Below are positions 417 to 45,547 of a stretch of DNA of 64,000 bases, piece after piece. The DNA is from a bacterium (lineage in GTDB: Bacteria > Babelota > Babeliae > Babelales > RVW-14), in assembly GCA_043822925.1 (NCBI GenBank), contig JBDRBF010000041.1, positions 4,957 through 68,956 of the forward strand. The letters run 5' to 3'. The position numbers were made by a program, and so were the translations under genes. The notes beneath the pieces are model-generated. The model worked only from the letters and a program-made list of their open reading frames with translations, was not told the origin of the DNA and did not search any database. The number at the start of each line of letters is the position of its first letter. The first letter of the stretch is position 1.

Positions 417-2843
417 TTACGCTTTACTCTTTTTTCTACGTTTGAGTGTCTCTTTACTTTTTTTGATCGTCTCAGAAGACCGATAATACGTATCTTCTTT
501 AATATTTACCATTTTGGGACGATCTTTGCCAAGTGCAAAATCATCAATAAGAGGAACTCTTCCTTTTGCAACATCTTCAAGTTTGCGTTTTACACTATAG
601 TGTTCTGGTTTAAAAAACCAACGCTGAATAGGGTCTTTATCTTTAGAAAATTCGTCGCTATTTATAATTTGATATTTTGCATAATCTAACTTTAACTGTG
701 TATATTCATCAGGAGCCCCTTCAAACTGAGGCTTAATAATACTTGGTCGTATAAAAATATATAAATTTTCGTCATCTTTTTTTTTGCTTTTCCATTTAAA
801 TAAATTTCCTAAAATTGGAATATCTCCCAAAATTGGTGTTTTAGAAATACTCATCTGTTGATTGGTTTTTTTCATACCGCCTAAAACAAGAACCTGGCCA
901 GCAAGTAAGCTTGTTTGTGTAACTATCGAACGCTTCATAGTGGTCGGAGTATCGGCGGCACTATCCGGAGTAAATTCATCAATGCATACCTCAATTTCCA
1001 AAATAACTACCCCGTCAGAATTAATATGAGGTTTTAATTTTACTTTATTCGTTGCCTTGGCCGAAACCCATGTATTTACCGTTTTTACACCTCCATCAGC
1101 CCGTTGCAAGCCGCCCTTTACTTGTCTATCTTCTCCAATTTCAACAGAACATTCTTGATGGTTATTTGCAACAACATACGGCTGAGAAATAATATGAGAA
1201 TTTTGTTGCCACAGAACACTTTTTACAAGCGCCCAAATATTCATAGACTCATCAGAATCAGAACGACCAAGTGTCATAAATGACGCATAACCATCTTTAT
1301 CACCAGATGCTATTTCAATAAACTTTGCCATAGGAATTGCCGTAGGATCTTTAGGCCGATCAGTTTTTTTCTCAGATAATTCTGCACCTGTAATATTCAT
1401 AAACTGCGTTCTATTAATACCCATACCGAGCTGTTTTCCATCTTTACTTTGCAACTGAGTACCCAACTCTTTTTCCTGCTTCTCATTAATAACAACCACG
1501 AGAACTTCAAATGCTACCTGAGCCTCAGGTTTATCAAGTTTATCGATAAATGTATTTAGACGAACCCAATCATCTTCATTACATGCAACAAGAAGTCTAT
1601 TACCACTACCTCTAACGCCTTCAGCTGCAGCTTCTGCAACGACTGTTGCATCTTCAAAAAACTTATATTTACCAACCAATATTCCCTTGCCCGTTTGTTG
1701 CCCTGCAGGAGGCTTTAAGATATCTTGCACTATTGCTTGTATATCTTCAGATTTTGCATAGCGAATTTCTTTAATATGAATTCGCGATTCAGCAGTACCA
1801 ACAGGCACATCAACATATTTGAAAATAAAGTCAGTTAAACGTTCAAGATTTTTTTCTGTCCCCAATAAAATAAGCGATTGCTTAATAGGGTCAGGAATTA
1901 TCTTTGTAGAAGACGAGAAATAAAAAGACTCTTTATGAGGCCCAACCGGAAACCTAAAACTTTTTTGTTTATCACCTTCTAATATTTTATCAAAAAGTTC
2001 TTTCACATCATGTGCATCTGCATAATTAAGACGAATAATTTTTATAGACTCTCGCAACCCACCAGTATCAAGTTCTTTAACGATTTTCATGGCAGCTTTA
2101 ATGTTAAAGCATTTTTCTTTAAGTATGACAGCCTGAAGATCTTGATTAATCTGAACGGCACCATCTTCAAGCAACTTACTCAAAATATCTTGCGCCATTT
2201 CTGGCTTTGTATTTTTGCAAAAATAAATATAGCGTACTATTAAGTCACTATCGGGTAAATTGTCAGAGTCTGTACCAGTTTTTGATGAATATATAGGTAA
2301 TGGCTGCATGCCACTTTCTTTATTTGAAACAACACGGAACAAATTATCAACTTTTACTATAGAAAAATTATTCATTTCAAGAAGCGTTAAAAGCACGTTC
2401 CAAGCACGCTCAAGCGTTAACGGATTACGTGTTGCAAGCGTAACTTTACAATTATCTAAATCTTTATGAGGCAGAATATTAATCTTTTTTTGTTCAGCAA
2501 GATAATTCATAACGCTGCCAAGTGACGTATTTTCAAAATTAAGATAAATATCTGAATCGCCCGTCTGCCCAGGAGCTAGTGGCGTTACATGTGGATGCGG
2601 CACTAATTGCATAATCGGCTGAGAAAGTGTTTTTCCTGTTACAACATTGCTCGGATTTACATCAATAGAAACGTTAGGTTCTGCAATATTTAATGGTTTT
2701 ACTGGCAAAAGTTGGGCGGCAGGAAGACTTATTGAGTTTGACGGCACTGATGGCATATCTAAAAGAAAAACAGACACGGGCATAAATAAAACTAGATATA
2801 AGACTAAAAAAAACAGACTAATTTTACGATTACTTAAAGCCAT
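417..2843 (-). CDS. Secretin, GspD/PilQ family (paralog 2, 808 aa)
   Basis: N-terminal hydrophobic signal. N0-like motif IYLNFENTSLGSVMNYLAEQKKINILP. C-terminal secretin core VLVLGGMKK...TPILGDIPILGNLFKWKSK...LYIFIRPSIIKP. Confidence 0.88.
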   Translation of the reverse strand: MALSNRKISLFFLVLYLVLFMPVSVFLLDMPSVPSNSISLPAAQLLPVKPLNIAEPNVSIDVNPSNVVTGKTLSQPIMQLVPHPHVTPLAPGQTGDSDIYLNFENTSLGSVMNYLAEQKKINILPHKDLDNCKVTLATRNPLTLERAWNVLLTLLEMNNFSIVKVDNLFRVVSNKESGMQPLPIYSSKTGTDSDNLPDSDLIVRYIYFCKNTKPEMAQDILSKLLEDGAVQINQDLQAVILKEKCFNIKAAMKIVKELDTGGLRESIKIIRLNYADAHDVKELFDKILEGDKQKSFRFPVGPHKESFYFSSSTKIIPDPIKQSLILLGTEKNLERLTDFIFKYVDVPVGTAESRIHIKEIRYAKSEDIQAIVQDILKPPAGQQTGKGILVGKYKFFEDATVVAEAAAEGVRGSGNRLLVACNEDDWVRLNTFIDKLDKPEAQVAFEVLVVVINEKQEKELGTQLQSKDGKQLGMGINRTQFMNITGAELSEKKTDRPKDPTAIPMAKFIEIASGDKDGYASFMTLGRSDSDESMNIWALVKSVLWQQNSHIISQPYVVANNHQECSVEIGEDRQVKGGLQRADGGVKTVNTWVSAKATNKVKLKPHINSDGVVILEIEVCIDEFTPDSAADTPTTMKRSIVTQTSLLAGQVLVLGGMKKTNQQMSISKTPILGDIPILGNLFKWKSKKKDDENLYIFIRPSIIKPQFEGAPDEYTQLKLDYAKYQIINSDEFSKDKDPIQRWFFKPEHYSVKRKLEDVAKGRVPLIDDFALGKDRPKMVNIKEDTYYRSSETIKKSKETLKRRKKSKA

Positions 2844-2866
2844 TGCGCGTACCCCTCTATTACGTT

Positions 2867-3403
2867 CTATTTTTCTTTTAACGTCGAAAGCGTTATATCA
2901 AACGTAATCCGCTTATTTTTTTCAGTTTTTATGTGCACTTTTTTTACATATACAATTTTAGTTTTATCTATTTCTTCCAATATCTTCACCATTTTTTCAG
3001 TCGTTTGATCTTTAAACGTAGCTGATAATTCCATTTCATCAAACTTTGAGTTAATGACATTTGGAGACTCTCGCCATCCGTCCTCAGGTTTAATATTTTG
3101 CCGCTTATAAAATGTTTCAAAATAACTATTAAGACTAAAATCTTTATTTTGAGCCAAAAGATCCGCCAACCGTACTTCTTCAGTTTGTATTTTCTCAAAT
3201 TGCTGACGCAAAATAAGAGCTTTATCTGACAATTTTTCTATCTTTTTAAAATGCATCATCAATTCATTATTTTGCGAATAAATATAATAGACTATACCTA
3301 TTACTATAACACCAACCCCCGCAAGAAAAATACCTAGATATCGTTGAAAATCTTTCTTACTCAAGTAATGAATTGTATCGGCAAGCTTTGAGATAAATTC
3401 CAT
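2867..3403 (-). CDS. GspM/PilO-like bitopic inner-membrane assembly protein (hypothetical)
   Basis: 178 aa with one N-terminal TM helix (YLGIFLAGVGVIVIGIVYYIY), then a coiled-coil-like region. It sits between the GspL-like gene and a secretin, 1 nt from the upstream stop. Confidence 0.45.
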   Translation of the reverse strand: MEFISKLADTIHYLSKKDFQRYLGIFLAGVGVIVIGIVYYIYSQNNELMMHFKKIEKLSDKALILRQQFEKIQTEEVRLADLLAQNKDFSLNSYFETFYKRQNIKPEDGWRESPNVINSKFDEMELSATFKDQTTEKMVKILEEIDKTKIVYVKKVHIKTEKNKRITFDITLSTLKEK

Positions 3404-3404
3404 A

Positions 3405-5078
3405 TTATTCTTCTTTTTTCGTAAGTTTTAAAGTGAATTGCACACCTTTTTCAGCAGCTGAATGCACTTCTTCTTCTTTGTCATCACGAACTAAAAGCCG
3501 AGAGTCATCAAAACGTTTTTTAAATTCAAAGAAAGCTTTAAAATGCTCCGCACCTTCACGTGATTTCAAAAAACCATCAACTGTAACTTCAGGCTTTCCT
3601 GCGATTTTTTCATCAATTGCAATTTCGCTAATATCAATATCAAACCGCTTTTTATCCATGATGCTGGTTAATTCAAAAAGAATATCAAGACAACGAACAC
3701 GCTCCTGGGCAAAAGGCGCACAAACTTCCTGTTTTTCTTTTAAAATTTTTTCAGCTTGAGCTATAACAGCAGCAAGCGACTTAGTTTTTGGTCTCTGAGC
3801 GCGAGGAATATTGTCTATGATCCGGCCAATTTCATTGTTTTCAATTTTGCTAACATATGCTGACAACTTACTTAATTGCAAGTAGCCCCGTACACCAATA
3901 AACGAAAGCAATATAAGCGCAAAAGAAAATCCAGCAATTAACTGTTTTTTAATTAACGGACGACGATCAAGAACAAACATTTTACGACGAAGATCAAATT
4001 CTACTTGTTCAGGTGATGGAATCGCCGTACCAAGAGCAATGGCATAATTACTTAAATTTGGGATTTGGCCAGAAATCTTATTCTGAATTAGCTTATTCAT
4101 AAAAAGCTTTAATGGATCAAATATTTCACAATGTACTTGAAGTATATCACTCGCAAATTGAGCCAAATCACTCACTTCTGCCGTTTTACCTGCAAATAAA
4201 ACTTTACTAACGCCTTTATAGTAATTTAATTTTAAACTAAATGAATTAAGCGTAAACTGAATATCATTAAAAAACTGCATCATGTATTTTTGAACAACGC
4301 GATCATATTCAAGGTCCCCCGTAGACTTAATCCCAATAGCTTTTAATTTTTTTAATACTTCTTCTTCTGTTACACTCGTATCTTTACTAATATGGTCGAC
4401 GATTGTTAATAAACCCTTTTGGATAGAACGCGTCAAACGCAATTTACCTTCATAAATAAACGAAATTTGTGTTACATTTACACCGACGTCAATCAAAGCG
4501 CTCCCTTGTTCAGTATTTTGATACTCAGGAATTTGCTGGTATAAACTATAAAGGGCAAATAAATCAAGCGTAATACTCTGTGGCTCTATGCCTGCTTGAC
4601 TAGTAATATCCAAAATACTTTGAATATCCTGATTTCTTACAGCAGCGACAAAAATATGCGAACTTTTCTGTTCTGGTAACTTTTCTGTCACTATAAAGTC
4701 AATACTTGCTTCATCGACAGAAAACGGCAACATAGACTCTATCTCATAATCAAGAACCATTCGTATACGCTCAGTATCAATAAACGGCACCACAAGTTCT
4801 TTAAAAACAGCGGCTGTCGGAATAGAAATACGAACCTGATCATAACGTTTAACCTGAGGCATTATTTTTTTTATTGCATCAATTGTACGCTGAGACTGTG
4901 TTTTTTCATCACCAGGCTCAAGAACTTCTTTAAACAATTTTTCTACTACTGTACAAGACCTTTTTGCATGCACAAGCGCTGCATACACCGTATCATCTTG
5001 CGTATCTATCGCCAAAATTCTCTGTGCATAAATACGTCGATTACCTATTCTTTCTGGAAGAAATAATTCTTTTATCAT
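3405..5078 (-). CDS. GspL-like (PilM-PilN fusion type) assembly-platform protein
   Basis: The N-terminal half has actin-like/PilM signatures (RILAIDTQDD..., ALIDVGVNVTQISFIYEGKLRLTRSIQKG). A central TM helix follows (LIAGFSFALILLSFIGV), then a periplasmic C-domain. The start overlaps the upstream secretin stop (ATGA at 5075-5078). Confidence 0.6.
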   Translation of the reverse strand: MIKELFLPERIGNRRIYAQRILAIDTQDDTVYAALVHAKRSCTVVEKLFKEVLEPGDEKTQSQRTIDAIKKIMPQVKRYDQVRISIPTAAVFKELVVPFIDTERIRMVLDYEIESMLPFSVDEASIDFIVTEKLPEQKSSHIFVAAVRNQDIQSILDITSQAGIEPQSITLDLFALYSLYQQIPEYQNTEQGSALIDVGVNVTQISFIYEGKLRLTRSIQKGLLTIVDHISKDTSVTEEEVLKKLKAIGIKSTGDLEYDRVVQKYMMQFFNDIQFTLNSFSLKLNYYKGVSKVLFAGKTAEVSDLAQFASDILQVHCEIFDPLKLFMNKLIQNKISGQIPNLSNYAIALGTAIPSPEQVEFDLRRKMFVLDRRPLIKKQLIAGFSFALILLSFIGVRGYLQLSKLSAYVSKIENNEIGRIIDNIPRAQRPKTKSLAAVIAQAEKILKEKQEVCAPFAQERVRCLDILFELTSIMDKKRFDIDISEIAIDEKIAGKPEVTVDGFLKSREGAEHFKAFFEFKKRFDDSRLLVRDDKEEEVHSAAEKGVQFTLKLTKKEE

Positions 5079-7912
5079 GGAACTGAACCCTCAGTTTTCA
5101 CAGGGATTTCTGAAAAAAACTTTTTGAGACTTTCTCTTTTCTCCTGCTGCACAGGAACTTCTTGTTGCACATTTTCTAGTTTGGGTTGGGAAAAAAATTT
5201 TTTAAGCTGCTCACGCTTTGGACTTTCAGAAATAAACTGTTTCAGCTTTTCTTTCTTATCTATCTGCCCATCTTGTACACTTTGAACACTAGTTATAGAA
5301 GCCTGTGAAAGAACATTTTTTAATTGTTCTCTACGCTCATCTAAATCAGTATCAACAACTGTTTGACCTGTATTATATATAGGCTCTTGCATAATAGGCT
5401 TTTGAGATAATTGCTTAAGTAATGGCGTTGTCCCCATTATTTCTTGTTTTTCAGGTGTTACTGGCGCCATAGGCTCTATTCTTGCTACTTTTTGCGCATC
5501 TGCCCCCGCAACAGAAACGGGACCAACAGGCATGTCTGCTTGAGTAAGTATTTTCTTATCTTGCACTGGCACCGTAATTCTTTCAGCTACTTCTTCTTTA
5601 AGCTCTTCGCGCTTTGTCTGAGATCTATAATACGGATCATTTTGCATGTCTACCGTTGTTGGCTGATAACGCGCATTGGCAAAATCAACAACTTTATGTG
5701 AATAATTTTCTGACTCAGCATCAAAGAACCAATTAAAAATTGGATCCCGAGTCTTTCTCGTCTCTACACCATTTTCAATACCCTCTGTAACTTGATGCAT
5801 TTTCATTTTGGTATACAATTCCATACCAGGCAACTGACGAGGCTTAATAATTGTTGGAGCCATAAAAACAAAAACATACGTTTTTGATATATCTCGTCTT
5901 TGTTTTTTAAATAACCACCCCAAAATTGGTATATCAGCCAAAATTGGCGTTTTTGTATTTTCATCCGATACTTTTGTTTTAACAAAACCACCAAGAACCA
6001 AAACCTGCCCATCAGCAACTGTCACCTGCGTTGTAAGATTTTTTGTCGTTTTATTCCCAGTATCTTCACGAATAAAATCATCAATGGTAAGCACTATGTC
6101 CATTTTAATAATTCCATCAAGATTTATTTGAGGGGTCAATTTAATGTTTGTATCTGCCTTAAGCGTAGTAAAACCTTTAGCTGTTGTGCTTGGATCAAGT
6201 TCCTGTGAAACACGAACCTCTTTACCAAATGATATTGTAGCTTCTTTCTTATTAGCTACCGTTAAAAAAGGCTTTGATAAAATAGTCGCATTCGTTTGAG
6301 TCTTAAGTGCCTGAAAAACTCCCCAAATATTAGCATTTTTTCCAAACGTTAATGTTGCAGCACCATGAGAAGCCGCAACTTGCCCAAGCATACGACCAAG
6401 TAAATTAAGCGGATTTGTATTATCCGGAGCAAAAGACGGACTTCCTGATATAGCTGCTGACTGAAAATTAATAGAATTTCCCAACTGTCCCTCTTTTTTA
6501 TTACGCAGAGCTCCACCGATATCTTTTATATTCGATGAATCAACCGACACAATAAGTGTTTCTATAGCAACTTGAGGCTGAGGTTTGTCCAAATCTCTAA
6601 TTGTTTTTTTTAGAAGCTTCCAGTCTTGTTTATCTGTCGAAGAGACAACAAGACGATTACCACTTTTATCTACCTTAAATTTCATCTGCTTAAAATATTT
6701 TACCCCACCGCGAATAGACCCATACTTTGCGGCCTCTGCACCCCCCTCACTCTCCGGAGCCGCAGTAACCTCCTGCAATATTTGAGCAATTTGAGTTGCA
6801 TCGGCATACTGTAGTTCAAAAATATGTAATGGCGATTCTACAGCTTTAAGTTCTGTATCAATATGATTAACAATAAAATCTTCAATTTTTTTAATAGGCC
6901 CAGCTGTCCCAAGCATTACTAAAGAATTTGTACGCGGTATCGTGAAAATTTTAATACCTGCCGGGAAATACTCTAACCCGCCCTCTGCTGCGCCACCAAA
7001 TAAACGAGCAAGCGCTCCACCTTCAGACTTTTTGGTCATCAAACCCTCAAGAAGCTCTTTCACGTCAGTTGCATTTGCATTTTTAAGCCTAAGAACAACA
7101 ACACTCTCTGACTGCCCAGACCGATCAAGCTCTTGTACTAATTTAACCGCAGATTTTATGTTAAGAGACTTATCTGTAATAATAAACCCGTTCACATCCG
7201 TTTGAGTTATTAACTGGTGCTTATCACTCAAAAGACTCTCAAGTAAAGTTGTGATTGACTCAGTCGGTAAATTTTGTAAGAAAAACACATAACGAATAGT
7301 TATGTCACTATCGGGAAGCGTTTCAGCCGGAACGTTAATATATGATGGTAAGGGTTCTGTAAGTTTTTTATCTTTTGGAATAACTTTATAAACATCGCCA
7401 ACTTGAACAATACTAAACCCAGCCATTTCTAGCACGGTTAAGAAAATTTTATACGCACCATCAAGCGTTAGGGGGTCGCGTATTGATAAAGAAATTTTTG
7501 CGCCTTCTAAAGCTTTATCTGGAATCAAATTAAATTTTTTCAGTTCTGCCATGTAGTTTACAAAATTTGATAATTCTGTATTTTCAAAATTCAAATAAAT
7601 ATCGCGCTCTTCTTTTACTTCTTGCTGACCAGTTTTTTTTATTTGATCTGAATCAGATTTTATTCGAGCATTAGATTTTAGACTTGCAGGCTGAAGAACT
7701 TCTAACTGCTTAGCCAAAACTTGATCTGACTTTTCTATTTTAGTTTGAGCCAATTGCGGCTGCACCTGAGCTGCAGAATCAACCTGAACTTGAGCTACAG
7801 TTATAGGCTGCTGCTGTATACTCTGAGCTGCTGGCATGGCACTTAACAATGGAAATAATCCACCAACAAAACATCCCACAAACAAGGCTCTCGTCTCGAA
7901 CAAAGCCCTCAT
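5075..7912 (-). CDS. Secretin, GspD/PilQ family (paralog 1, 945 aa) with long low-complexity N- and C-terminal extensions
   Basis: Signal peptide ...LLSAMPAAQS. N0-like IYLNFENTELSNFVNYMAELKKFNLIP. Secretin core VLVLGGFVKTK...TPILADIPILGWLFKKQRR...VFVFMAPTIIKP. Confidence 0.88.
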   Translation of the reverse strand: MRALFETRALFVGCFVGGLFPLLSAMPAAQSIQQQPITVAQVQVDSAAQVQPQLAQTKIEKSDQVLAKQLEVLQPASLKSNARIKSDSDQIKKTGQQEVKEERDIYLNFENTELSNFVNYMAELKKFNLIPDKALEGAKISLSIRDPLTLDGAYKIFLTVLEMAGFSIVQVGDVYKVIPKDKKLTEPLPSYINVPAETLPDSDITIRYVFFLQNLPTESITTLLESLLSDKHQLITQTDVNGFIITDKSLNIKSAVKLVQELDRSGQSESVVVLRLKNANATDVKELLEGLMTKKSEGGALARLFGGAAEGGLEYFPAGIKIFTIPRTNSLVMLGTAGPIKKIEDFIVNHIDTELKAVESPLHIFELQYADATQIAQILQEVTAAPESEGGAEAAKYGSIRGGVKYFKQMKFKVDKSGNRLVVSSTDKQDWKLLKKTIRDLDKPQPQVAIETLIVSVDSSNIKDIGGALRNKKEGQLGNSINFQSAAISGSPSFAPDNTNPLNLLGRMLGQVAASHGAATLTFGKNANIWGVFQALKTQTNATILSKPFLTVANKKEATISFGKEVRVSQELDPSTTAKGFTTLKADTNIKLTPQINLDGIIKMDIVLTIDDFIREDTGNKTTKNLTTQVTVADGQVLVLGGFVKTKVSDENTKTPILADIPILGWLFKKQRRDISKTYVFVFMAPTIIKPRQLPGMELYTKMKMHQVTEGIENGVETRKTRDPIFNWFFDAESENYSHKVVDFANARYQPTTVDMQNDPYYRSQTKREELKEEVAERITVPVQDKKILTQADMPVGPVSVAGADAQKVARIEPMAPVTPEKQEIMGTTPLLKQLSQKPIMQEPIYNTGQTVVDTDLDERREQLKNVLSQASITSVQSVQDGQIDKKEKLKQFISESPKREQLKKFFSQPKLENVQQEVPVQQEKRESLKKFFSEIPVKTEGSVP

Positions 7913-7942
7913 CGACTTTTCCTACCTATTTTTTTATACGGC

Positions 7943-9070
7943 CTATCTAACACGCGAATCATGCATGCGCATCTTCAAATTATTTAATAATCTTTCTCGT
8001 ATACGAGCTATCGCATCTTTTTGTTCTGTACTTGAATGCTGCTGCCTAAATTGTCTAATCATGTCTTCTCGTTTTTGCTGTCTACTTTGGTCAAAGACTT
8101 CCGGCTTCTTCTCTTCTGGCTTTCCACCGGTAAATATTTTTTGAGAAGCCTTACTTATCTTGGCAAATTCATACAATAAAGTTTCATCCTGGCCGCCTCG
8201 TTTGACGACTAAACTAAACTTATCACCAATCTTGCCATCTGCTATAGTATCATAAATATGTAATCTGCTCTTTAAGTCCGCTGTAGGAAGCTTATTGACT
8301 GACAATAGTATATCATTTTTTTGAAGGCCCAAAGCGCCCCCAATATCTCCTTGATCAAGTAGCCCAACTTTTAATCCAATCGGCTTACCAGTCTGATACG
8401 CCGTACCTATTATTGCTGCGCGTTCAATAAAGCTACCCAGTCCATCAATCTCGTCTTTAAAATTATCTGGATCTATTTGATATGTTCTATCTTCTATTCT
8501 TTTAACGATATACTTCCAACGCTCTTCTGGCTTAGAATTATCTTTAAGATCATCTTTTCTTAAATAAAAAATCTCTTGCTGACCATTACCCCGAAGCAAC
8601 ACAATTCTGTTACGTGCGATTTTAACAATTTGAGCATCTTTAATTTTTTCACCCAAATGATATAAGCCTTCTTTTTTAGTTTCATCTTCTATCATGGCAA
8701 CGTTTTGATTTTCATCAGCAGAAATTATAATCCCCTTAATAATTACTGTAAGAGGCGCAATAAACGACTGTTTTTGTAATTCAGGAACGGGAACGATTTC
8801 TGCCGGCTTTGGTTGTGGTACAGGAGTCACAAGCTCTTTTTTAACAAGCTCAACTTTTTCTGGTACATACGTATCAAAAAGATCTTCTTTGTATATTTTT
8901 TCCAAACTTACAGGAAAAACAGCTTCTTTTTTCTTTTCTAAATCAAGGCTCACTGTTTTTGGACGAAAAACGGGAATCTGCACTTGAACAAATTGGCCTG
9001 TTACAAATGCAACAACAAACATCATTAAAAGTGCACTGTTCAGCATCCACAATTGTGGCTTCATAACCAC
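7943..9070 (-). CDS. GspC-like protein (TM anchor, HR-like domain, PDZ domain)
   Basis: N-terminal TM (LNSALLMMFVVAFVTGQF). HR-like segment IIKGIIISADENQNVAMIEDETKKEGLYHLGEKIKDAQIVKIARNRIVLL. PDZ-like GLKVGLLDQGDIGGALGLQKNDILLSVN. Lies immediately upstream of a secretin. Confidence 0.6.
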   Translation of the reverse strand: MVMKPQLWMLNSALLMMFVVAFVTGQFVQVQIPVFRPKTVSLDLEKKKEAVFPVSLEKIYKEDLFDTYVPEKVELVKKELVTPVPQPKPAEIVPVPELQKQSFIAPLTVIIKGIIISADENQNVAMIEDETKKEGLYHLGEKIKDAQIVKIARNRIVLLRGNGQQEIFYLRKDDLKDNSKPEERWKYIVKRIEDRTYQIDPDNFKDEIDGLGSFIERAAIIGTAYQTGKPIGLKVGLLDQGDIGGALGLQKNDILLSVNKLPTADLKSRLHIYDTIADGKIGDKFSLVVKRGGQDETLLYEFAKISKASQKIFTGGKPEEKKPEVFDQSRQQKREDMIRQFRQQHSSTEQKDAIARIRERLLNNLKMRMHDSRVR

Positions 9071-9097: not shown

Positions 9098-10084
9098 TTA
9101 TGGGGAAGGCACCGTACGCAAAATCTGTTGAATAATCTGATCTGTCGTAATATTCTCAGCCTCAGCTTCGTACGTCAATAAAATTCTATGTCTCAAAATA
9201 TCTATAGCTACCGCTTTTACGTCATCTGGAATAACAAAATGCCGTTTTCTTAATAATGCATGCGCTCTGGCCGCGTGATTTAGCGCCAACGTCGCCCGAG
9301 GAGAAGCGCCATAATCAATAAAATATTGAATATCTTCAAGTTTATATTCTTGCGGACTGCGCGTCGCAAAAACAAGAGATAAAATATATTCAGTAACTTT
9401 ATCGTCAATGTAAACGTCTTGAACTAATTTTTTCGCCTCTTGCATCTCAAGCTTGCCCATAATACTAAATACTTCTTGAGGTTGAAAGACTTTCTTTATA
9501 ATTTGCTTTTCTTCACTTATCGTTGGATAATTTACCAATAATTTAAACATGAAACGATCCACTTGCGCTTCTGGAAGACGATACGTGCCTTCTTGATCTA
9601 TCGGATTCTGTGTAGCAAGCACAAGAAACTCATCTTCAAGCTTAAACGTCTGATCGCCAATCGTAACTTGTCGCTCTTGCATCGCTTCAAGCAATGCTGA
9701 TTGTACTTTTGCAGGGGCTCTGTTTATTTCATCAGCTAATAATAAATTTGTAAAAATTGGACCTTTTTTAGTCTGAAACTCTTGCGTCTTGGGATTATAC
9801 ACCAACGTTCCAATCAGATCTGCTGGAAGCAAATCGGGAGTAAATTGAATCCGCTTGAAACCCAAACGTAACGTTTTTGCAATAGTATTAACCAATGTTG
9901 TTTTAGCGAGTCCCGGAACACCCTCTAAAAGAATGTGCCCATTACAAAGCAACCCAATAAAAATACGATCTATAATATAATCTTGTCCGACTACAACTTT
10001 GCTAATTTCATTTTTTAGCGCAGTCCATTGAGCACTTTGTTCTTTTATTTTTTCTACTATTTGAGGTGAAACCTGATTTTCCAT
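9098..10084 (-). CDS. MoxR-family AAA+ ATPase
   Basis: Walker A LLEGVPGLAKT and Walker B/sensor LLADEINRAPAKVQSALLEAMQERQVT. The ~328 aa length is typical of the MoxR/AAA_3 family. Confidence 0.88.
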   Translation of the reverse strand: MENQVSPQIVEKIKEQSAQWTALKNEISKVVVGQDYIIDRIFIGLLCNGHILLEGVPGLAKTTLVNTIAKTLRLGFKRIQFTPDLLPADLIGTLVYNPKTQEFQTKKGPIFTNLLLADEINRAPAKVQSALLEAMQERQVTIGDQTFKLEDEFLVLATQNPIDQEGTYRLPEAQVDRFMFKLLVNYPTISEEKQIIKKVFQPQEVFSIMGKLEMQEAKKLVQDVYIDDKVTEYILSLVFATRSPQEYKLEDIQYFIDYGASPRATLALNHAARAHALLRKRHFVIPDDVKAVAIDILRHRILLTYEAEAENITTDQIIQQILRTVPSP

Positions 10085-10250: not shown

Positions 10251-11555
10251 TTACTTTGCTTTATTTATATCAATATTTAACGCCAATAACTTAGCACGCA
10301 ACTGAGGAACCTCTAAATTCAACCGCTCACAAACTTGGCCCAAATCATAATGACTATTTTTTAAATGATAAAGTAAAAAATTTTTTTCGAAAGCCTTTGT
10401 GGCATCTTGCAACGTATTAAACGTAATAAATACCTGTTCATCAATAAATTGAGTATCTTTTTCACCCAAATATTTTCGCAAGACATCTGGCATTACTACA
10501 AAATCACCTTCTGGCGCAAGACAAACAATTTTTTTTATACACGAACGTAACTGAGCAACATTGCCAAGCCACGTATAATTTCGCATAAGCCGCACACTCG
10601 AATTTGAAAAAATAACAGATTTAGCCTGGAGTCCATTTTCAATATTAACAAAATAATTTATAAGCAATGGAATATCAAAGCGACGTTTACATAAAGACGG
10701 AATTTCGACTGGAATCATGTTTAACTTATGAAAAAGAGCACTACTAAACCGTTCTTTTCTCACTAAATCAAACAAAGACGCCGTTGACGATGCTATAATC
10801 TTCACAACGTTGAAATCGCACTGCTCAATTAAAGACAATATTTTTTTTTGATGCTCAAGAGAAAGTGCCTGTATATTTTTGAAATAAAGCGTCTTACTTG
10901 AAGTATCTATAATATAACTATCAAGCAACCCGAAATCAGGTTCTCCTGCGCAATTTATCTCAATAAACCGAGCAGAAGATAATTCACACGTCTTTAGATT
11001 TTTACGATGAACATAAGAAGCGATAAGACTTTTTCCACTCCCATGTGGACCATAAATAAGCAACGGCAAATTTAATGCTTCAATTTTTCTTACGTGATAC
11101 ATAAGCTCTTGAAACAAGAAACTTTTCCCCACAATACCATAATTCTCATAGTCGTGTTCATAGTTAATCTCAGAGTCCAAATCGCTAGAATTCTGTTTCA
11201 AGTCTGCCACTTTTGAAAGAATATCATCAAGATTTAATGGTTTTTCAATAAAATCGACAGCGCCTTTACTCACCGCTTGAAGCGCCATTGGTATATTACC
11301 AAACCCCGATATAATTATAACTTTTTGCTGAGGAAACTCTTTTTTTATACGCTCTAATAAATCTAACCCATTAATATTAGGCATAAAAATATCAAGAAAA
11401 ATAAGATCTGGAATAAACTTGCCTATAACTGCTATAGCTTTTGACGCATCAGCTACCGTCTGAACGATATAACCCTCGTCCTCTAAAACTTCTTGCAATG
11501 TTTTAAGAATTGCTTCTTCGTCATCTATAACAAGAATAACCGGTTTTTTGTTCAT
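10251..11555 (-). CDS. NtrC-like response regulator (receiver + degenerate AAA+ + Fis-type HTH)
   Basis: Receiver motifs VIDDEE, LIFLDIFMP, IIISGFG and FIEKP. Walker A GPHGSGKS. No GAFTGA motif, and the Walker B position reads TLYFKNI. The C-terminal HTH is DLGQVCERLNLEVPQLRAKLLALNI. Confidence 0.75.
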   Translation of the reverse strand: MNKKPVILVIDDEEAILKTLQEVLEDEGYIVQTVADASKAIAVIGKFIPDLIFLDIFMPNINGLDLLERIKKEFPQQKVIIISGFGNIPMALQAVSKGAVDFIEKPLNLDDILSKVADLKQNSSDLDSEINYEHDYENYGIVGKSFLFQELMYHVRKIEALNLPLLIYGPHGSGKSLIASYVHRKNLKTCELSSARFIEINCAGEPDFGLLDSYIIDTSSKTLYFKNIQALSLEHQKKILSLIEQCDFNVVKIIASSTASLFDLVRKERFSSALFHKLNMIPVEIPSLCKRRFDIPLLINYFVNIENGLQAKSVIFSNSSVRLMRNYTWLGNVAQLRSCIKKIVCLAPEGDFVVMPDVLRKYLGEKDTQFIDEQVFITFNTLQDATKAFEKNFLLYHLKNSHYDLGQVCERLNLEVPQLRAKLLALNIDINKAK

Positions 11556-14661: not shown

Positions 14662-15981
14662 ATGATTTATAGAAAAAAAATTCAGGCACTTTTACTTACA
14701 GGATGTTTACTCAGCCTTTCAAGTCAATTACTTGCGAGTCATAATACCAGTAAATATTCACTCTTTCTGGAGCGTCCAGACAATTACTCATACAGAAAAA
14801 AGCCATATCTACATGCTTCGCTATTTTATACATCAGCATCGACGGCGTTTCATCGCTATGGTGGCAACGCAGGTTTATATGAACTTTCAGGAAAATACGA
14901 TTTACAAAACATTTTTGACAGCCTAAAAACCGCTCACGCAACAGATGTAGCACTTAAGCCACAATTAGATCTCTGGGAGAGACAACTTGCTGGCTATGCA
15001 AATAAAACCGAATTTACAGCAGAAGGCAAATGCAAAGCAAGAGGCTTTGCACTTCAATACGATTGCGATCTTAAATGGAACAATCTTGTGGTTGGAGCAT
15101 CTATTCCATTTATATCAATAAATACAACCAGTCGCCTTAATCCATCAAATAAATCTTTGTCTGCAAGCGACCAACTAAATCTCAGTAAGATACGAAGAGA
15201 AATTCATGACACACTTGATCTTCGCGAAAATAACTGGGACAAAGGCGGGATTGGTGACGTAGACGTTTATCTCCGCTGGAATTATTTTTTAGATCATAAG
15301 CTTTTAATGCGCAGTATTAATCTCAATTTCCAATTTGGTTGCCTAGCCCCTACCGGCATCAGCCAAGACACCTCATACTTTTCATCTGTTCCTGTCATGG
15401 GCAATGGACATTGCGGACTTTATCTAGACTTTGTTCCCGAATTTGAACTTAAACAAAATTTAAAAGTCGGCTTCATGGTCGGTAACATTTATCAATTCAA
15501 AAACACAAAAATAATGCGCTTGCCTACGTATAAAGAACCTGCAATTTTTAGCCCTATTGTTGGAGATGTTAGTATTGAGCCTGGCTACACACTTAAACTA
15601 GCTCCCTATGTGATTCTTGAAAATCTTACAAACGGTGTTCATTTTCAAGCCCGTTATTCTTATTTGCGCCACAGCACTGATTCATGGAAAGATGCTCGCT
15701 CGACCGACGAAAAAACAAGCACCCCAAGCTATTTAAATATGAAGCCAGACATTGCAAATAACATAACTCAGGAAAATATAAACGATAATATAGCAAGTAA
15801 GAAAAATTTAACAAAATGGCGCGCACACTACATCACGCTGCAATTTTTATATAACTCAAAAGATGCATTACATAATCTTGTTTTTGATCCCAACGTTTAT
15901 ATTTCCTATGATCTTCCAATTGCTGGTCGCGGTATAAGTAAAACACATCAGATTACACTCGGTGCTGAATTACACTTTTAA
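14662..15981 (+). CDS. Putative outer-membrane beta-barrel protein
   Basis: Signal peptide (LLTGCLLSLSSQLLA|S). Alternating-hydrophobicity strands throughout. The C-terminus is ...ITLGAELHF with a terminal aromatic residue, typical of BAM substrates. Confidence 0.5.
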   Translation: MIYRKKIQALLLTGCLLSLSSQLLASHNTSKYSLFLERPDNYSYRKKPYLHASLFYTSASTAFHRYGGNAGLYELSGKYDLQNIFDSLKTAHATDVALKPQLDLWERQLAGYANKTEFTAEGKCKARGFALQYDCDLKWNNLVVGASIPFISINTTSRLNPSNKSLSASDQLNLSKIRREIHDTLDLRENNWDKGGIGDVDVYLRWNYFLDHKLLMRSINLNFQFGCLAPTGISQDTSYFSSVPVMGNGHCGLYLDFVPEFELKQNLKVGFMVGNIYQFKNTKIMRLPTYKEPAIFSPIVGDVSIEPGYTLKLAPYVILENLTNGVHFQARYSYLRHSTDSWKDARSTDEKTSTPSYLNMKPDIANNITQENINDNIASKKNLTKWRAHYITLQFLYNSKDALHNLVFDPNVYISYDLPIAGRGISKTHQITLGAELHF

Positions 15982-16011
15982 TAAATACTTATAAAATTAA
16001 AGGGTCTTTAT

Positions 16012-17049
16012 ATGAAATTTTGGCCTGCACGCAAATTATTCGATCTCTTTTCAAACGATATGGCAATTGACCTTGGAACAGCAAACACTGTTATCTATAT
16101 AAAAGGCCAAGGTATTATTCTAGATCAACCTTCAGTTGTCGCCGTAAAAGCATCAACAAACGAAGTACTTGCAGCGGGAAACAAAGCCAAATCTATGTTA
16201 GGCAAAACGCCAGAAAGCATCATAGCCTGTCGCCCAATGCGCGACGGCGTTATCGCAAATTTTGAACTTACTGAAGCCATGCTTCGCTATTTTATTTTAG
16301 ACGCAAATAATAACCGTAAAACATTTGTCCGTCCCCGCATGATCATCGGCGTCCCATCAGGTATCACCCAAGTAGAAAAACGCGCTGTCGAAGATTCAGC
16401 AAAACAAGCTGGCGCTCGTGAAGTGTTTACCATCATGGAACCAATGGCTGCGGCTATCGGCGCCGGACTTCCTGTTGTAGAACCAACCGGAAACATGATT
16501 GTTGATATCGGCGGTGGCACCACTGAAGTTGCGATTATTTCTCTTAAAGACATCGTATATTGCAAATCTGTACGCGTTGGTGGCGATGAAATGGATCGCG
16601 CAATCGTTCAATACATTAAACGAAAATATAACGTTCTGATCGGTGAAAAAACAGCCGAATTAATTAAAATAACTATTGGTACCGCTATATTATCTGAAGA
16701 AGTAAGACAAATACCTGTTAAAGGGCGCGATTTAATAACTGGCGTACCAAAAACACTCTTACTCAGCGACACTGAAGTTTTCGAAGCCGTCGCTGAACCT
16801 ATTTCAGTAATTATTGACGCAGTCAGATCTGCTCTTGAAAATGCACCGCCAGAACTTTCATCAGACCTTGTTGACCGTGGCATCATGATGTCCGGCGGAG
16901 GCTCACTGCTCAAAAACTTAGATCTTTTAATTTCAAAAGAAACAGGATTGCCCGTTCAAGTGGCTAACGACCCACTACGTTGCGTTGTACTTGGCGCAGG
17001 GAAAGTTCTCGAAGAACTCGACTTCTTTAGAGAAGCAGTTTTGAGATAA
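16012..17049 (+). CDS. mreB: Rod-shape determining actin homolog MreB
   Basis: Motifs MAIDLGTANTVIY, DIGGGTTEVAIIS and GGGSLLKNLDLLISKETGLPV. Confidence 0.96.
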   Translation: MKFWPARKLFDLFSNDMAIDLGTANTVIYIKGQGIILDQPSVVAVKASTNEVLAAGNKAKSMLGKTPESIIACRPMRDGVIANFELTEAMLRYFILDANNNRKTFVRPRMIIGVPSGITQVEKRAVEDSAKQAGAREVFTIMEPMAAAIGAGLPVVEPTGNMIVDIGGGTTEVAIISLKDIVYCKSVRVGGDEMDRAIVQYIKRKYNVLIGEKTAELIKITIGTAILSEEVRQIPVKGRDLITGVPKTLLLSDTEVFEAVAEPISVIIDAVRSALENAPPELSSDLVDRGIMMSGGGSLLKNLDLLISKETGLPVQVANDPLRCVVLGAGKVLEELDFFREAVLR

Positions 17050-17083
17050 CACGTTACTCTAAAAACAAATTCTAACCTTAAAA

Positions 17084-17112
17084 GGCTCGTAAAATATTAC
17101 GGGCCTTTTTTT
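17084..17112 (+). terminator. Intrinsic terminator of mreB
   Basis: ggctcgtaa-aatat-ttacgggcc forms a 9-bp stem with one G-U pair, followed by ttttttta. Confidence 0.7.
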
Positions 17113-17235
17113 ATACAAAAAAAAGAACTCCTATATTCGCAAAGCTTTACAAGCAGTAATATTATAAGTAATACTAGAAAATATCTTGCGCATAAATTTA
17201 AAACAAAAGTCTTGAAGTGGACTTAAATAAGCGCT

Positions 17236-17262
17236 CGTGAATAACGTGAATAACGTGAATAA
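17236..17262 (+). repeat. Three perfect tandem copies of cgtgaataa directly upstream of the ribosome-binding site of the first A-type gene
   Basis: cgtgaataa x3 is read directly, followed by aAGGAG and an ATG at 17278. Confidence 0.9.
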
Positions 17263-17277
17263 AAGGAGAATAGTACA

Positions 17278-18969: not shown

Positions 18970-19067
18970 AAAATAAAAAAAACCTGGCTCCTGGATCCCT
19001 ACTACACCCAGGTGGCTTGGAAGGCCAGACGAGTCCTGGATAACAAGTAAAAAAGAAAGAGAGAGTT

Positions 19068-21068: not shown

Positions 21069-21147
21069 AAAATCTATGCACAAAGTTAAAAATAAAACCT
21101 TAAAGTTAACTTTAACCGGCACCTGAAAATAAAGGGAGAAGAGTAAA

Positions 21148-23058: not shown

Positions 23059-23062
23059 AAAA

Positions 23063-23080
23063 CCGGGGTTAAAACCCCGG
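23063..23080 (+). repeat. GGGGTT..AACCCC palindromic hairpin just after the A2 stop codon
   Basis: ccgggg-ttaaaa-ccccgg. It has the same core as the hairpins at 395-412 and 23208-23225. Confidence 0.6.
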
Positions 23081-23181
23081 CCTAACAAGAGCTTCGTGCT
23101 ACCGCACGAGAAAGCTTCGATGAACATGAAAACCGATAAATGTAAAATTCCTAAACCCTTACAATTAAAGGCGAGATCATC

Positions 23182-26954: not shown

Positions 26955-27704
26955 TTATGCGCCAATATATGCAGGAAACACAACTTTAAAAAGCCCGCAA
27001 GCTTTTCCAAATGCGTCATACATAGCAGCAGTCATGGCAGTAACTAAAGCTCCAGGGGCTTTATCTATAACAAAATTAACATCAAAATTTTTTACGACAC
27101 GCTCTTGCAGCCTCGTTAATTTTTCTTTTAAAACAGGCGAACAACATTTAAAATTCACACAATCTTTCAATGTAGTTTTTAAACCAATAAGAACATTTTT
27201 AGTAATATTACCTGATAAATATGCCAAATATGGCACCAAAATTTTTGCCAGATTTTTTGTTAAAACAAAAGCATTACGTACATTAAATAAACCAAGAGAT
27301 AGATAAGTAAAAAGAACCACCATTAAAAATGCTTTAATAGCAAAAATAAATTGCGCCGTATTTATGCTTATTTTGTCAGTCTCTCGTATTTTATTATACG
27401 TTTCTTTAATAACTTCACGCGTAAGCTGACAAACGTCTTTAATCTCACTAAATTTATCAGAAACTTTATTTTGAATACTTTTTTCCAAATCAAACACAAA
27501 AGAGACTATTTTCTCAAATGTGCTATGCAAGCGCAGAGCACTCTCTGGTGTGATATTTTTTTCAAGATTAAATTCTCGAGTAGTTTCTTGATTATTAAGC
27601 ATAACGTTATTATTTTGACAATTATTAATCGATAAACAGATGATATTAAAAAGTAAAAACATACTTAAAAAAGGTGCATGTGTGCGCAAATAAGATAATG
27701 ACAT
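26955..27704 (-). CDS. Hypothetical membrane/exported protein
   Basis: 249-aa ORF with an N-terminal hydrophobic segment (FLSMFLLFNIICLSI), an internal TM (FIFAIKAFLMVVLFTYLSLGLF) and its own terminator. No recognisable family motif. Confidence 0.5.
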   Translation of the reverse strand: MSLSYLRTHAPFLSMFLLFNIICLSINNCQNNNVMLNNQETTREFNLEKNITPESALRLHSTFEKIVSFVFDLEKSIQNKVSDKFSEIKDVCQLTREVIKETYNKIRETDKISINTAQFIFAIKAFLMVVLFTYLSLGLFNVRNAFVLTKNLAKILVPYLAYLSGNITKNVLIGLKTTLKDCVNFKCCSPVLKEKLTRLQERVVKNFDVNFVIDKAPGALVTAMTAAMYDAFGKACGLFKVVFPAYIGA

Positions 27705-37428: not shown

Positions 37429-37432
37429 TCTG

Positions 37433-44879: not shown

Positions 44880-44955
44880 TGGCAGGCCAGGAGGGACTCG
44901 AACCCCCAACACGCGGATTTGGAGTCCGCTGCTCTACCATTGGAGCTACTGACCT
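44880..44955 (-). tRNA. tRNA-Trp (CCA)
   Basis: Cloverleaf AGGTCAG/TA/GCTC..GAGC/A/GCGGA-CTCCAAA-TCCGC/.../CTGGCCT/G/CCA. Confidence 0.9.
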
Positions 44956-44973
44956 TCAAAACAACTCTCAAAC

Positions 44974-45132: not shown

Positions 45133-45181
45133 AGTAAAAAACTTTCTATCTAACCTTGGGGCTGAAACCACAAACTGCAAG

Positions 45182-45539: not shown

Positions 45540-45547
45540 ACTCGTTC

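What the first reader, a model, noticed from the sequence alone, without database searches (positions are those of the whole stretch)
417..9070. Two paralogous secretins in one gspC-D-L-M-D' operon with no ATPase, platform or pseudopilin genes
Seen: on the minus strand the order is GspC-like (TM+HR+PDZ), a 945-aa secretin, a GspL-like PilM/PilN fusion, a GspM/PilO-like protein and a second 808-aa secretin. Spacing is tight (ATGA overlap at 5075-5078, 1-nt gap at 3404). Both secretins share the N0 motif IYLNFENT..L...NY.AE.KK.N..P, the secretin core, and a post-core motif (DPI..WFF ... YYRS). Established: T2SS and T4P loci normally carry a single secretin, and T2SS operons continue with gspE/F and pseudopilins, which are absent here. 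The flanks are MoxR and a convergent LOG gene. Inference: this could be a non-canonical outer-membrane conduit with two channel types, or a hetero-oligomer, sharing one inner-membrane C/L/M scaffold.
Basis: partly seen in the sequence, partly recalled or inferred. Interest (0 to 1): 0.62.

Follow-up and report, generated by a model that had tools for sequence, protein, structure and literature searches.

The report
Two-secretin secretion operon of Dependentiae
This is the conserved envelope-spanning core of the only secretion machine of Dependentiae (TM6) bacteria, and it carries two full-length outer-membrane channel genes around a single inner-membrane scaffold; the missing motor, platform and pilin genes are not absent from Dependentiae but lie scattered elsewhere in relatives' genomes.

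Summary
On the minus strand, 417-9070 encodes five proteins in order:
- a GspC-like protein
- a 945-aa GspD-type secretin (A)
- a PilM-TM-periplasmic fusion
- a 178-aa bitopic protein
- an 808-aa GspD-type secretin (B)

Both secretins have N0, N1-N3 and a complete secretin core. A MoxR ATPase gene about 30 nt upstream probably belongs to the same transcript.

The window comes from a Dependentiae (TM6/Babeliales) MAG. The order MoxR-C-A-PilMN-178-B recurs in every one of 32 Dependentiae loci that hold gspC, down to 27-35% identity. It is therefore a phylum-wide trait, not a local rearrangement. A and B are sister paralogs from a duplication inside the phylum, not a merged T2SS plus T4P pair.

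No GspE, GspF or pilin gene lies in the window or within 10 kb of the operon in any relative. However, published COG tables for Babela and TM6SC1 list 2 PulE, 2 PulF, pilins, 1 PulO and 1 PilM elsewhere. The "ATPase-less conduit" reading therefore fails.

Yeoh et al. (2016) already reported two gspD copies in all TM6 genomes and left their role open. The shared single-scaffold operon appears undescribed. The most likely model is two separate channels on one C/L/M scaffold; a hetero-oligomer is not excluded.

The parts
9098..10084 (-). MoxR-family AAA+ ATPase. Probable first gene of the transcript; possible accessory or chaperone, role inferred only.
   Evidence: AAA_3 2.1e-65 and AAA_lid_2 5e-23. 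The stop codon lies about 30 nt before the gspC-like start, with no terminator between. It sits directly upstream of gspC in 30 of 32 Dependentiae loci at 60-79% identity.
7943..9070 (-). GspC-like protein: N-terminal TM helix, HR (secretin-N0-binding) domain, PDZ domain.
   Evidence: Pfam T2SSC 2.1e-08, 34.5 bits, above the cut-off of 27, at residues 106-167. PDZ_2 and PDZ_6 hits are weak. NCBIfam GspC_delta 2.8e-22, below cut-off. Present in 32 of 32 loci. The likely true start is the ATG at 9064.
5075..7912 (-). Secretin A (GspD-type, 945 aa): signal peptide, P/Q-rich linker, N0-N1-N2-N3, secretin core, conserved post-core region, variable low-complexity tail.
   Evidence: N0 3.9e-13, Secretin_N 7.7e-22, Secretin 8.1e-34 (1-169/169). 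TIGR02517 gspD 307.7 bits against a cut-off of 351. Best PDB matches are full-length T2SS GspD/XcpQ at 1.6e-40. The orthologs form a clade with 100/100 bootstrap support.
3405..5078 (-). PilM actin-like cytoplasmic domain fused to a TM helix and a roughly 150-aa periplasmic domain (GspL-like topology; PilM plus PilN in one chain).
   Evidence: PilM_2 8.5e-25; T2SSL 2.8e-04, below cut-off. Amuc_1101 family 2.3e-22 over residues 22-475. A profile of 37 orthologs hits Myxococcus PilM at 2.9e-26 and no GspL. It overlaps secretin A by 4 nt.
2867..3403 (-). 178-aa bitopic protein in the GspM/PilO position: TM helix at about 22-42, long helix, small alpha/beta C-terminal domain. Family not established.
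   Evidence: No Pfam, NCBIfam, PDB or hhalign similarity. The AF2 model has pLDDT 59, with a helix at 16-85 followed by a-b-a-b-b. Foldseek gives nothing significant; PilO (3jc8_O) ranks 9th at E=0.24. Present in 31 of 32 loci.
417..2843 (-). Secretin B (GspD-type, 808 aa): signal peptide, linker, N0-N1-N2-N3, secretin core, conserved helical post-core region.
   Evidence: N0 2.5e-07, Secretin_N 1.3e-09, Secretin 5.9e-35 (6-169/169). gspD HMM 260 bits. PDB GspD 1.2e-39. The AF2 model (66-sequence MSA, pLDDT 72.7) shows four N domains, the barrel and C-terminal helices. The top Foldseek hits are PulD, GspD, ExeD, EpsD and XcpQ at 1e-34 to 1e-25. The orthologs form a clade with 100/100 support.
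10251..11555 (-). Receiver plus sigma-54-activator-type response regulator (NtrX-like). A conserved upstream neighbour and possible regulator; not shown to belong to the system.
   Evidence: Response_reg 5e-30 and Sigma54_activ_2 2e-20. Found upstream in 21 of 32 loci, with a median gap to moxR of 22 nt. No -24/-12 promoter match lies upstream of moxR or gspC.

Best explanation
The locus is the outer-membrane channel and alignment module of the Dependentiae T2SS-like (type IV filament) nanomachine. Published genome analyses describe this machine as the only secretion system of these host-dependent bacteria.

Proposed working:
- GspC-like, the PilM-TM-periplasmic fusion and the 178-aa bitopic protein form one inner-membrane scaffold.
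- The HR domain of the GspC-like protein docks the N0 domain of a GspD-type secretin.
- The ATPase (GspE/PilB), platform (GspF/PilC), (pseudo)pilins and prepilin peptidase that drive the piston or filament are encoded elsewhere in the genome.
- The two secretins come from a duplication inside the phylum and have been kept side by side ever since.
- Most likely each forms its own homo-oligomeric channel, and both use the same C/L/M scaffold. This gives one machine two outputs, for example effector secretion and a pilus or second substrate class, perhaps matched to the two GspE and two GspF paralogs.

Shown:
- gene content, domain completeness, phylum-wide synteny and the paralog phylogeny
- absence of E/F/G nearby
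- presence of E/F/G/O in the Babela and TM6SC1 genomes

Inferred:
- docking of both secretins to one GspC
- two separate channels rather than one mixed ring
- pairing with the E/F paralogs
- any role for MoxR
For: Domains and structure:
- Both secretins are complete GspD-type proteins.

Synteny:
- The order [RR]-MoxR-GspC-SecA-PilMN-178-SecB is conserved in all 32 Dependentiae loci that hold gspC, including deep lineages at 27-35% identity.
- Gene junctions are tight or overlapping. Median gaps are C-A 13 nt, A-PilMN -4, PilMN-178 3 and 178-B 13.5.

Phylogeny:
- All Dependentiae secretins are monophyletic against E. coli GspD, HofQ and five outgroup secretins (100/100).
- The A clade and the B clade each have 100/100 support.
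- Both copies are always retained in these reduced genomes.

Shared docking partner:
- N0 is the domain most conserved between A and B of the same genome (0.45, against 0.25-0.39 for the other domains).

Scaffold and motor counts:
- PilM is single copy in Babela and TM6SC1, while PulE and PulF are each present twice and PulD 3 and 2 times.
- Babela GspF is a stand-alone gene.

Literature:
- Two gspD copies occur in all TM6 genomes and pilQ is absent.

Distance correlations (weak evidence):
- After removing MoxR distances, the B-GspC correlation (0.58) is at least as strong as A-GspC (0.49).
Against: - E/F/G/O were not checked in this MAG itself; only the 64-kb window is available.
- The evidence for E/F/G/O rests on Babela and TM6SC1 COG tables plus one verified GspF.
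- No tool here could test oligomeric state. The A-B distance correlation is the highest of all pairs (0.90 raw, 0.76 partial), and the post-core region is shared. Both facts would fit a mixed ring equally well.
- The 178-aa protein is not demonstrably GspM/PilO.
- The periplasmic half of the PilM fusion matches nothing.
- No pili were seen on Babela by EM (quoted in PMC4776705), and PilT is absent. A pilus output is therefore speculative.
- Placement of the deep-lineage copies is unresolved (bootstrap 58/30/15), so the duplication could have occurred more than once.
Confidence: 0.6

Rival explanations
1. The two secretins co-assemble into one composite outer-membrane channel, either a mixed ring or two stacked or concentric rings. 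The operon would then encode a single hetero-oligomeric conduit.
For: - The two genes are always co-encoded and probably co-transcribed.
- They share a conserved post-core C-terminal region and an N3 ring domain.
- They show the highest pairwise distance correlation of any gene pair in the operon (0.90 raw, 0.76 partial).
- Neither copy is ever lost.
Against: - No hetero-oligomeric secretin is known (my knowledge; literature searches found none).
- The barrel regions that form the subunit interfaces are among the least conserved between A and B: 0.25 for residues 451-534 and 0.35 for the core.
- Correlated rates are expected for paralogs under the same structural constraints.
- Two E and two F paralogs fit two outputs better.
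Confidence: 0.17
2. One reading: a non-canonical outer-membrane conduit that works without an ATPase, platform or pseudopilins.
For: No E/F/G/O homolog and no prepilin-motif ORF lies in the window or within 10 kb of the operon in about 49 Dependentiae loci.
Against: - Babela and TM6SC1 encode 2 PulE, 2 PulF and 1 PulO each, plus pilins, elsewhere in the genome.
- Babela GspF was verified as a stand-alone gene.
- The PilM domain and the GspC HR domain are parts that, in known systems, couple to exactly those missing components.
Confidence: 0.05
3. One copy is a redundant or decaying duplicate with no separate role.
For: - B scores lower than A on the N0, Secretin_N and gspD models.
- B evolves somewhat faster: within-clade identity is 0.48 against 0.54.
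Against: - Both copies are full length with complete cores in every species sampled across a phylum of strongly reduced genomes.
- 93 columns are at least 90% identical across both paralogs.
- L050 even carries a third copy.
Confidence: 0.05

Closest known systems
Canonical type II secretion system (Klebsiella Pul, Vibrio Eps, E. coli Gsp; gspC-O operon)
   Same: - A GspC with an HR domain and a PDZ domain.
- GspD-type secretins with N0-N3, the core and a C-terminal helical region; they are the best sequence and fold matches.
- An L-like bitopic protein with an actin-like cytoplasmic domain.
- A small bitopic protein in the M position.
   Different: - Two secretins instead of one.
- E, F, G-K and O are not in the operon (compare L063).
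- The L-position protein is PilM by sequence, not GspL.
- The M-position protein is unrecognisable.
- Both secretins fall below the GspD equivalog cut-off.
- A MoxR gene lies upstream instead of gspA/B.
Type IVa pilus pilMNOPQ alignment-plus-secretin operon (Pseudomonas, Myxococcus; E. coli hofMNOPQ)
   Same: - The operon holds only the alignment subcomplex and the secretin.
- The motor, platform and pilins are encoded at other loci.
- A PilM domain is present.
   Different: - PilM and the PilN-position domain are fused.
- A GspC-like protein (HR plus PDZ) stands in place of PilP.
- The secretins are GspD-type with N0 and without AMIN domains.
- There are two secretins.
- No PilT is found in Babela or TM6SC1.
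Akkermansia Amuc_1098-1102 pilus-like cluster (NCBIfam Amuc_1101 PilM-like, Amuc_1098 secretin)
   Same: A long PilM-like protein that extends beyond the actin-like domain: the Amuc_1101 family model matches residues 22-475 at 2.3e-22. It lies next to a secretin.
   Different: Scores are far below the family cut-offs (79.6 against 650; 50-56 against 750). Only one secretin hit was seen in the Akkermansia locus L055, and a pilin gene lies nearby.
Two gspD copies reported for candidate phylum TM6 (Yeoh et al. 2016, PMC4776705; Deeg et al. 2019, PMC6561590)
   Same: These are the same genes. The papers note that pilQ is absent, that two gspD copies occur in all TM6 genomes, and that one copy may stand in for pilQ. 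They also mention a 'derived pulD channel' for T4P proteins.
   Different: In the text I could read, those papers do not describe three things:
- both copies sit in one operon around a single GspC/PilM-fusion scaffold
- they are sister paralogs of an in-phylum duplication
- E/F/G are never adjacent

Membership tests
T2SS secretin GspD (TIGR02517 / Pfam Secretin + Secretin_N + type_II_gspD_N0) | Complete C-terminal secretin core domain | tested here: met
   PF00263: A covers 1-169/169 at 8.1e-34; B covers 6-169/169 at 5.9e-35.
T2SS secretin GspD (TIGR02517 / Pfam Secretin + Secretin_N + type_II_gspD_N0) | N0 domain plus N1-N3 ring-building domains | tested here: met
   The N0 model is above the cut-off of 27 in both (49.5 and 30.9 bits), and so is Secretin_N. 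The AF2 model of B shows four N domains. PDB GspD alignments run from N0 to the end of the core.
T2SS secretin GspD (TIGR02517 / Pfam Secretin + Secretin_N + type_II_gspD_N0) | Score above the curated equivalog cut-off (351 bits) | tested here: not met
   A scores 307.7 bits and B 260.0 bits. They are divergent GspD-type proteins, not equivalogs.
T2SS secretin GspD (TIGR02517 / Pfam Secretin + Secretin_N + type_II_gspD_N0) | Encoded with gspE/F/G-K in one T2SS locus | tested here: not met
   No E/F/G/O lies within the window or within +-10 kb in about 49 Dependentiae loci. These genes are present elsewhere in Babela and TM6SC1.
T4aP secretin PilQ (TIGR02515) | PilQ subfamily score above cut-off (284 bits); AMIN domains; no GspD-type N0 | tested here: not met
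   Scores are 174 and 152 bits. No AMIN hit was found, and a GspD-type N0 is present. PDB PilQ matches cover the core only.
GspC | HR domain (Pfam T2SSC) after an N-terminal TM helix, with a C-terminal PDZ or coiled coil | tested here: met
   T2SSC scores 34.5 bits against a cut-off of 27. The PDZ hits are below cut-off (18 and 17 bits). The NCBIfam GspC models are below cut-off (79.9 against 150).
GspL | Match to the T2SSL model; bitopic protein with a cytoplasmic actin-like domain and a periplasmic ferredoxin-like domain | tested here: inconclusive
   T2SSL scores 20.8 bits against a cut-off of 25.5. No PDB GspL hit was found even with a 37-sequence profile. The topology (PilM domain, TM helix near residue 390, 150-aa C-terminal domain) fits GspL.
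PilM | PilM_2 actin-like ATPase-fold domain | tested here: met
   PilM_2 scores 87.8 bits against a cut-off of 27. The ortholog profile hits Myxococcus PilM at 2.9e-26. TIGR01175 scores 91.6 against 133, below cut-off.
GspM / PilO | Sequence or fold similarity to GspM or PilO (bitopic, coiled coil, ferredoxin-like domain) | tested here: inconclusive
   - No Pfam or NCBIfam hit.
- No PDB hit with a 38-sequence profile.
- hhalign against E. coli GspM, HofO and HofN gives probability below 1%.
- The AF2 model has pLDDT 59.
- In Foldseek, PilO ranks only 9th at E=0.24.
- Only the position, size and TM-plus-helix-plus-a/b layout agree.
Complete T2SS / type IV filament machine | Genome also encodes the GspE/PilB ATPase, GspF/PilC platform, major and minor (pseudo)pilins, and a prepilin peptidase | not testable with these tools
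   The rest of this MAG could not be read. In relatives the Babela/TM6SC1 counts are PulE 2/2, PulF 2/2, PulG 3/0, PilV 2/0, PilE 1/1, PulO 1/1 and PilT 0/0. The Babela T2SSF gene was verified.

The most novel reading that the evidence does not exclude
One inner-membrane scaffold (GspC, PilM fusion, 178-aa protein) serves two different outer-membrane secretins. It could do so either as a dual-output machine that switches between two channels with two motor/platform sets, or as the first hetero-oligomeric secretin channel. Either way it would be a type IV filament architecture with no described counterpart, fixed across a whole phylum of intracellular parasites that have no other secretion system.
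Probability: 0.55. Interest if true: 0.65.

Novelty: new variant of a known kind. Interest (0 to 1): 0.42.

Why it matters
Dependentiae are widespread obligate parasites or symbionts of protists. A very large share of their proteins carry signal peptides (44% of CDS in Chromulinavorax). The published genome analysis of Babela detected no secretion system other than this T2SS-like machine.

How effectors leave these cells, and why every genome keeps two secretins, has been an open question since 2016. Three results turn that question into testable alternatives, namely two channels on one scaffold or one mixed channel:
- both secretins lie in one conserved operon with a single scaffold
- they are in-phylum paralogs
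- their N0 domains are the part most alike

For the secretin field, a natural system in which two GspD paralogs share one GspC would be a useful model for channel-scaffold specificity.

Tried and rejected
1. Merged T2SS plus T4P loci. Rejected because both secretins are GspD-type and form one Dependentiae clade, and the tandem order is universal.

2. E/F/G inside the window among unannotated ORFs. NCBIfam and Pfam on 19 further ORFs, blastp with 20 E. coli Gsp/Hof references, and a prepilin-motif scan all found none.

3. Identifying the 178-aa protein as GspM/PilO. None of the following was conclusive:
   - Pfam and NCBIfam scans
   - a profile search against the PDB
   - hhalign against E. 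coli GspM, HofO and HofN
   - AF2 followed by Foldseek

4. Lipoprotein (self-piloting) secretins. The N-termini of about 70 orthologs show ordinary signal peptides and no conserved lipobox Cys.

5. A sigma-54 promoter upstream of moxR or gspC that would link the neighbouring response regulator to the operon. No match in the right place.

6. Direct retrieval of a Dependentiae GspE. No query was available. The Babela supplement file holding the protein sequences is truncated before that gene.

7. Literature on tandem or hetero-oligomeric secretins. Nothing relevant was found.

8. The repeat motif in the tail of secretin A ([KR]E.LK.F[FI]). It occurs only in the window and two close relatives, so it is not a family feature.

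Full report
**Observation**

- 7943-9070 (375 aa)
- 5075-7912 (945 aa)
- 3405-5078 (557 aa)
- 2867-3403 (178 aa)
- 417-2843 (808 aa)

There is a 4-nt overlap at 5075-5078 and a 1-nt gap at 3404.

Pfam and NCBIfam give the following results.
- Both large proteins have a GspD-type N0 domain, Secretin_N domains and a complete secretin core. A covers 1-169/169 at 8e-34; B covers 6-169/169 at 6e-35.
- The first gene has a T2SSC (HR) domain above Pfam's cut-off, plus weak PDZ hits.
- The 557-aa protein is PilM by sequence (PilM_2, 87.8 bits). Its T2SSL hit is sub-threshold.
- The 178-aa protein matches nothing.

A and B are 34% identical over 719 residues, including the region after the core.

The flanks are MoxR (9098-10084) and a convergent LOG gene (2-373). 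Only the label 'GspM/PilO-like' is unverified.

**Source organism and conservation**

- Secretin B is identical to an NCBI MAG protein (ABH827_03895, contig of 69,954 bp).
- Its 120 best homologs (43-58% identity) are named Dependentiae, Babeliales or TM6 wherever a name exists.
- A scan of one genome per GTDB species returned about 49 Dependentiae loci.
- I called ORFs in all of them and mapped them by blastp against the window proteins. Every one of the 32 loci that contain gspC has the order GspC - secretin A - PilM fusion - 178-aa protein - second secretin.
- Median intergenic gaps are 13, -4, 3 and 13.5 nt.
- MoxR is directly upstream in 30 of 32 loci, at 60-79% identity.
- A receiver/sigma-54-type response regulator lies upstream of MoxR in 21 of 32 loci.
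- The order holds even in three deep lineages (L050-L052) at 27-35% identity. L050 carries a third secretin in tandem.

The arrangement is therefore an ancestral, phylum-wide trait.

**Origin of the two secretins**

- Both match the GspD HMM best (308 and 260 bits, against 174 and 152 for PilQ).
- Both match solved T2SS secretins over their full length, N0 to the end of the core (1e-40). PilQ, pIV, InvG and RcpA match only the core.
- An AF2 model of B (66-sequence alignment, pLDDT 72.7) shows N0-N1-N2-N3, the barrel and C-terminal helices.
- The best Foldseek hits for that model are PulD, GspD, ExeD, EpsD and XcpQ.
- I built a neighbour-joining tree of 91 secretins from the loci plus E. coli GspD and HofQ (715 columns, 100 bootstraps).
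  - All Dependentiae secretins form one clade (100).
  - The main-lineage A clade (100) and B clade (100) each stand alone.
  - The deep-lineage first and second copies each form a clade (100), but their attachment is unresolved (58/30/15).
- Mean identities are A-A 0.54, B-B 0.48, A-B 0.33, A or B to E. coli GspD 0.25/0.24, and to HofQ 0.21/0.19.

The two genes are in-phylum paralogs, not one T2SS and one T4P secretin brought together. Caveats: the tree is distance-based and the outgroup sample is small.

**Where the paralogs are alike**

- Across 29 same-genome pairs, N0 is the most conserved domain between A and B (0.45).
- It is followed by N3 (0.39), N1 (0.37), the core (0.35) and N2 (0.34).
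- The first part of the barrel is least conserved (0.25).
- The post-core 90 residues are strongly conserved within each paralog (0.39-0.66) and recognisably shared between them (0.30-0.31). AF2 predicts helices there at low confidence, as for an S-domain.
- In known T2SSs, N0 binds the GspC HR domain (established knowledge; for example the PulD-PulS-PulC HR structure 6hcg, which is the top fold hit).
- The high N0 similarity fits both paralogs docking on the single GspC. This is an inference.
- Both proteins have ordinary signal peptides and no conserved lipobox.

**The missing genes**

- No homolog of E. coli GspE/F/G/H/I/J/K/O, HofB/C or PpdD occurs in the window or in any Dependentiae locus. 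No ORF there carries a prepilin motif.
- The same searches do find E, F and G beside the secretin in the outgroup loci from Acidithiobacillus, an unclassified bacterial bin (L058) and Omnitrophota.
- The genes nevertheless exist in the phylum. Pagnier et al. [quoted passage not shown]
- Their COG table lists the following counts:

| COG family | Babela | TM6SC1 |
|---|---|---|
| PulD | 3 | 2 |
| PulE/PilB | 2 | 2 |
| PulF | 2 | 2 |
| PulG | 3 | 0 |
| PilV | 2 | 0 |
| PilE | 1 | 1 |
| PulO | 1 | 1 |
| PilM | 1 | 1 |
| PilT | 0 | 0 |

- I took the Babela PulF sequence from their supplement and found it in the protein collection as a T2SSF-family protein of Babela.
- It is a stand-alone gene at 517.9 kb of HG793133.1, with no T2SS neighbours. 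A 35%-identical homolog on another contig is likewise isolated.

The system is therefore a dispersed T2SS/type IV filament machine. The operon is its channel-and-alignment module, comparable to pilMNOPQ lying apart from pilBCD. I could not read the rest of this particular MAG, so for this genome the presence of E/F/G is inferred from relatives.

**Prior knowledge**

- Yeoh et al. 2016 (PMC4776705) wrote that pilQ is absent in TM6, that two gspD copies were identified in all genomes, and that one copy may have replaced pilQ. They called this 'an open question'.
- Deeg et al. [quoted passage not shown]
- I found no paper that describes the shared operon, the single scaffold, the paralog phylogeny or any hetero-oligomeric or tandem secretin.

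**Mechanism**

Best-supported model: one inner-membrane scaffold (GspC-like, PilM fusion, 178-aa protein) couples the dispersed motor, platform and pseudopilins to GspD-type channels.

Both channels are functional and non-redundant. Both are retained as full-length genes in every sampled species of a phylum with strongly reduced genomes.

A single PilM alongside two E, two F and two or more D paralogs suggests two outputs that share one scaffold.

I rate the claim that this is the channel module of a dispersed T2SS-like machine at about 0.85. I rate two separate homo-oligomeric channels at about 0.45-0.5, a mixed channel at about 0.17, and a redundant copy or an ATPase-less conduit at about 0.05 each.

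Distance-matrix correlations among the six operon proteins in 24 genomes give the following:
- A-B is the highest pair (0.90 raw; 0.76 after regressing out MoxR distances).
- B-GspC (0.58) is at least as high as A-GspC (0.49).

This is weak evidence, because paralogs share constraints and no significance test was done.

**MoxR**

- Its near-universal position about 30-90 nt upstream suggests co-transcription and a possible assembly-chaperone role. In the window there is no terminator in between.
- That role would be loosely analogous to the AAA+ protein GspA/ExeA, which helps secretin assembly in some T2SSs (my knowledge).
- However, housekeeping neighbours (MlaE/F, SecG, TIM) are also syntenic in many loci. 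Adjacency alone is therefore weak evidence.

**Verdict**

- The finding is real and correctly described at the gene level.
- Its most provocative element, the absence of an ATPase, platform and pilins, is explained by gene dispersal.
- The existence of two gspD copies in TM6 is already in the literature.
- What remains unusual and undescribed is the fixed two-secretin, one-scaffold operon.
- I class it as a new variant of a known kind, of moderate interest.

Noticed in passing
window 14662-25263 (+): Five consecutive genes encode proteins with N-terminal signal peptides. Four form two alternating paralog pairs by their N-termini (563/636 aa and 666/693 aa). The 666- and 693-aa proteins carry WD40 beta-propellers and a pectate-lyase-like adhesive domain; the other two have no Pfam hit. 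They are eukaryote-like candidate secreted effectors lying 5.6 kb from the secretion operon.
   Followed up: partly
window 26596-26767 (-): A group II intron D1-D4 RNA match (RF02001, 125.9 bits, 1.8e-25). The neighbouring ORFs (26162-26545 and 26955-27704) have no reverse-transcriptase or any other Pfam hit, so this is possibly a degenerate or ORF-less intron.
   Followed up: partly
window 10251-11555 (-): An NtrX-like response regulator with a sigma-54-activator AAA+ domain. By eye it lacks a GAFTGA loop and a canonical Walker B motif. It is conserved upstream of moxR in 21 of 32 loci (median gap 22 nt), but no -24/-12 promoter is seen nearby.
   Followed up: partly
L050 8170-10212 and adjacent (MAG MFD09206.bin.2.34): This deep-branching Dependentiae locus carries three secretins: one A-position copy of 1142 aa and two tandem copies of 815 and 789 aa after the PilM fusion. 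Babela is also listed with three PulD genes.
   Followed up: partly
window 5075-5600 (-), residues about 781-945 of secretin A: The low-complexity C-terminal tail has three copies of a [KR]E.LK.F[FI]S motif. The motif is found only in the window and two close relatives (L007, L010). Tail length varies from about 780 to 1142 aa among orthologs.
   Followed up: yes
L003 21610-22454: A ComEC-like competence channel gene (DUF4131 plus Competence domains) lies about 9 kb downstream of the operon in one relative. It hints that DNA uptake could be one use of a pilus-like output.
   Followed up: no
window 33313-41773 (-) and 44880-45766 (-): Two very large ORFs of 1390 and 1446 aa lie tail to head, followed by ORFs of ribosomal-protein size and a cluster of five tRNA genes. 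By size and order this looks like an rpoB/rpoC-type housekeeping neighbourhood, but these ORFs were not searched. GC skew is negative across the whole window.
   Followed up: no
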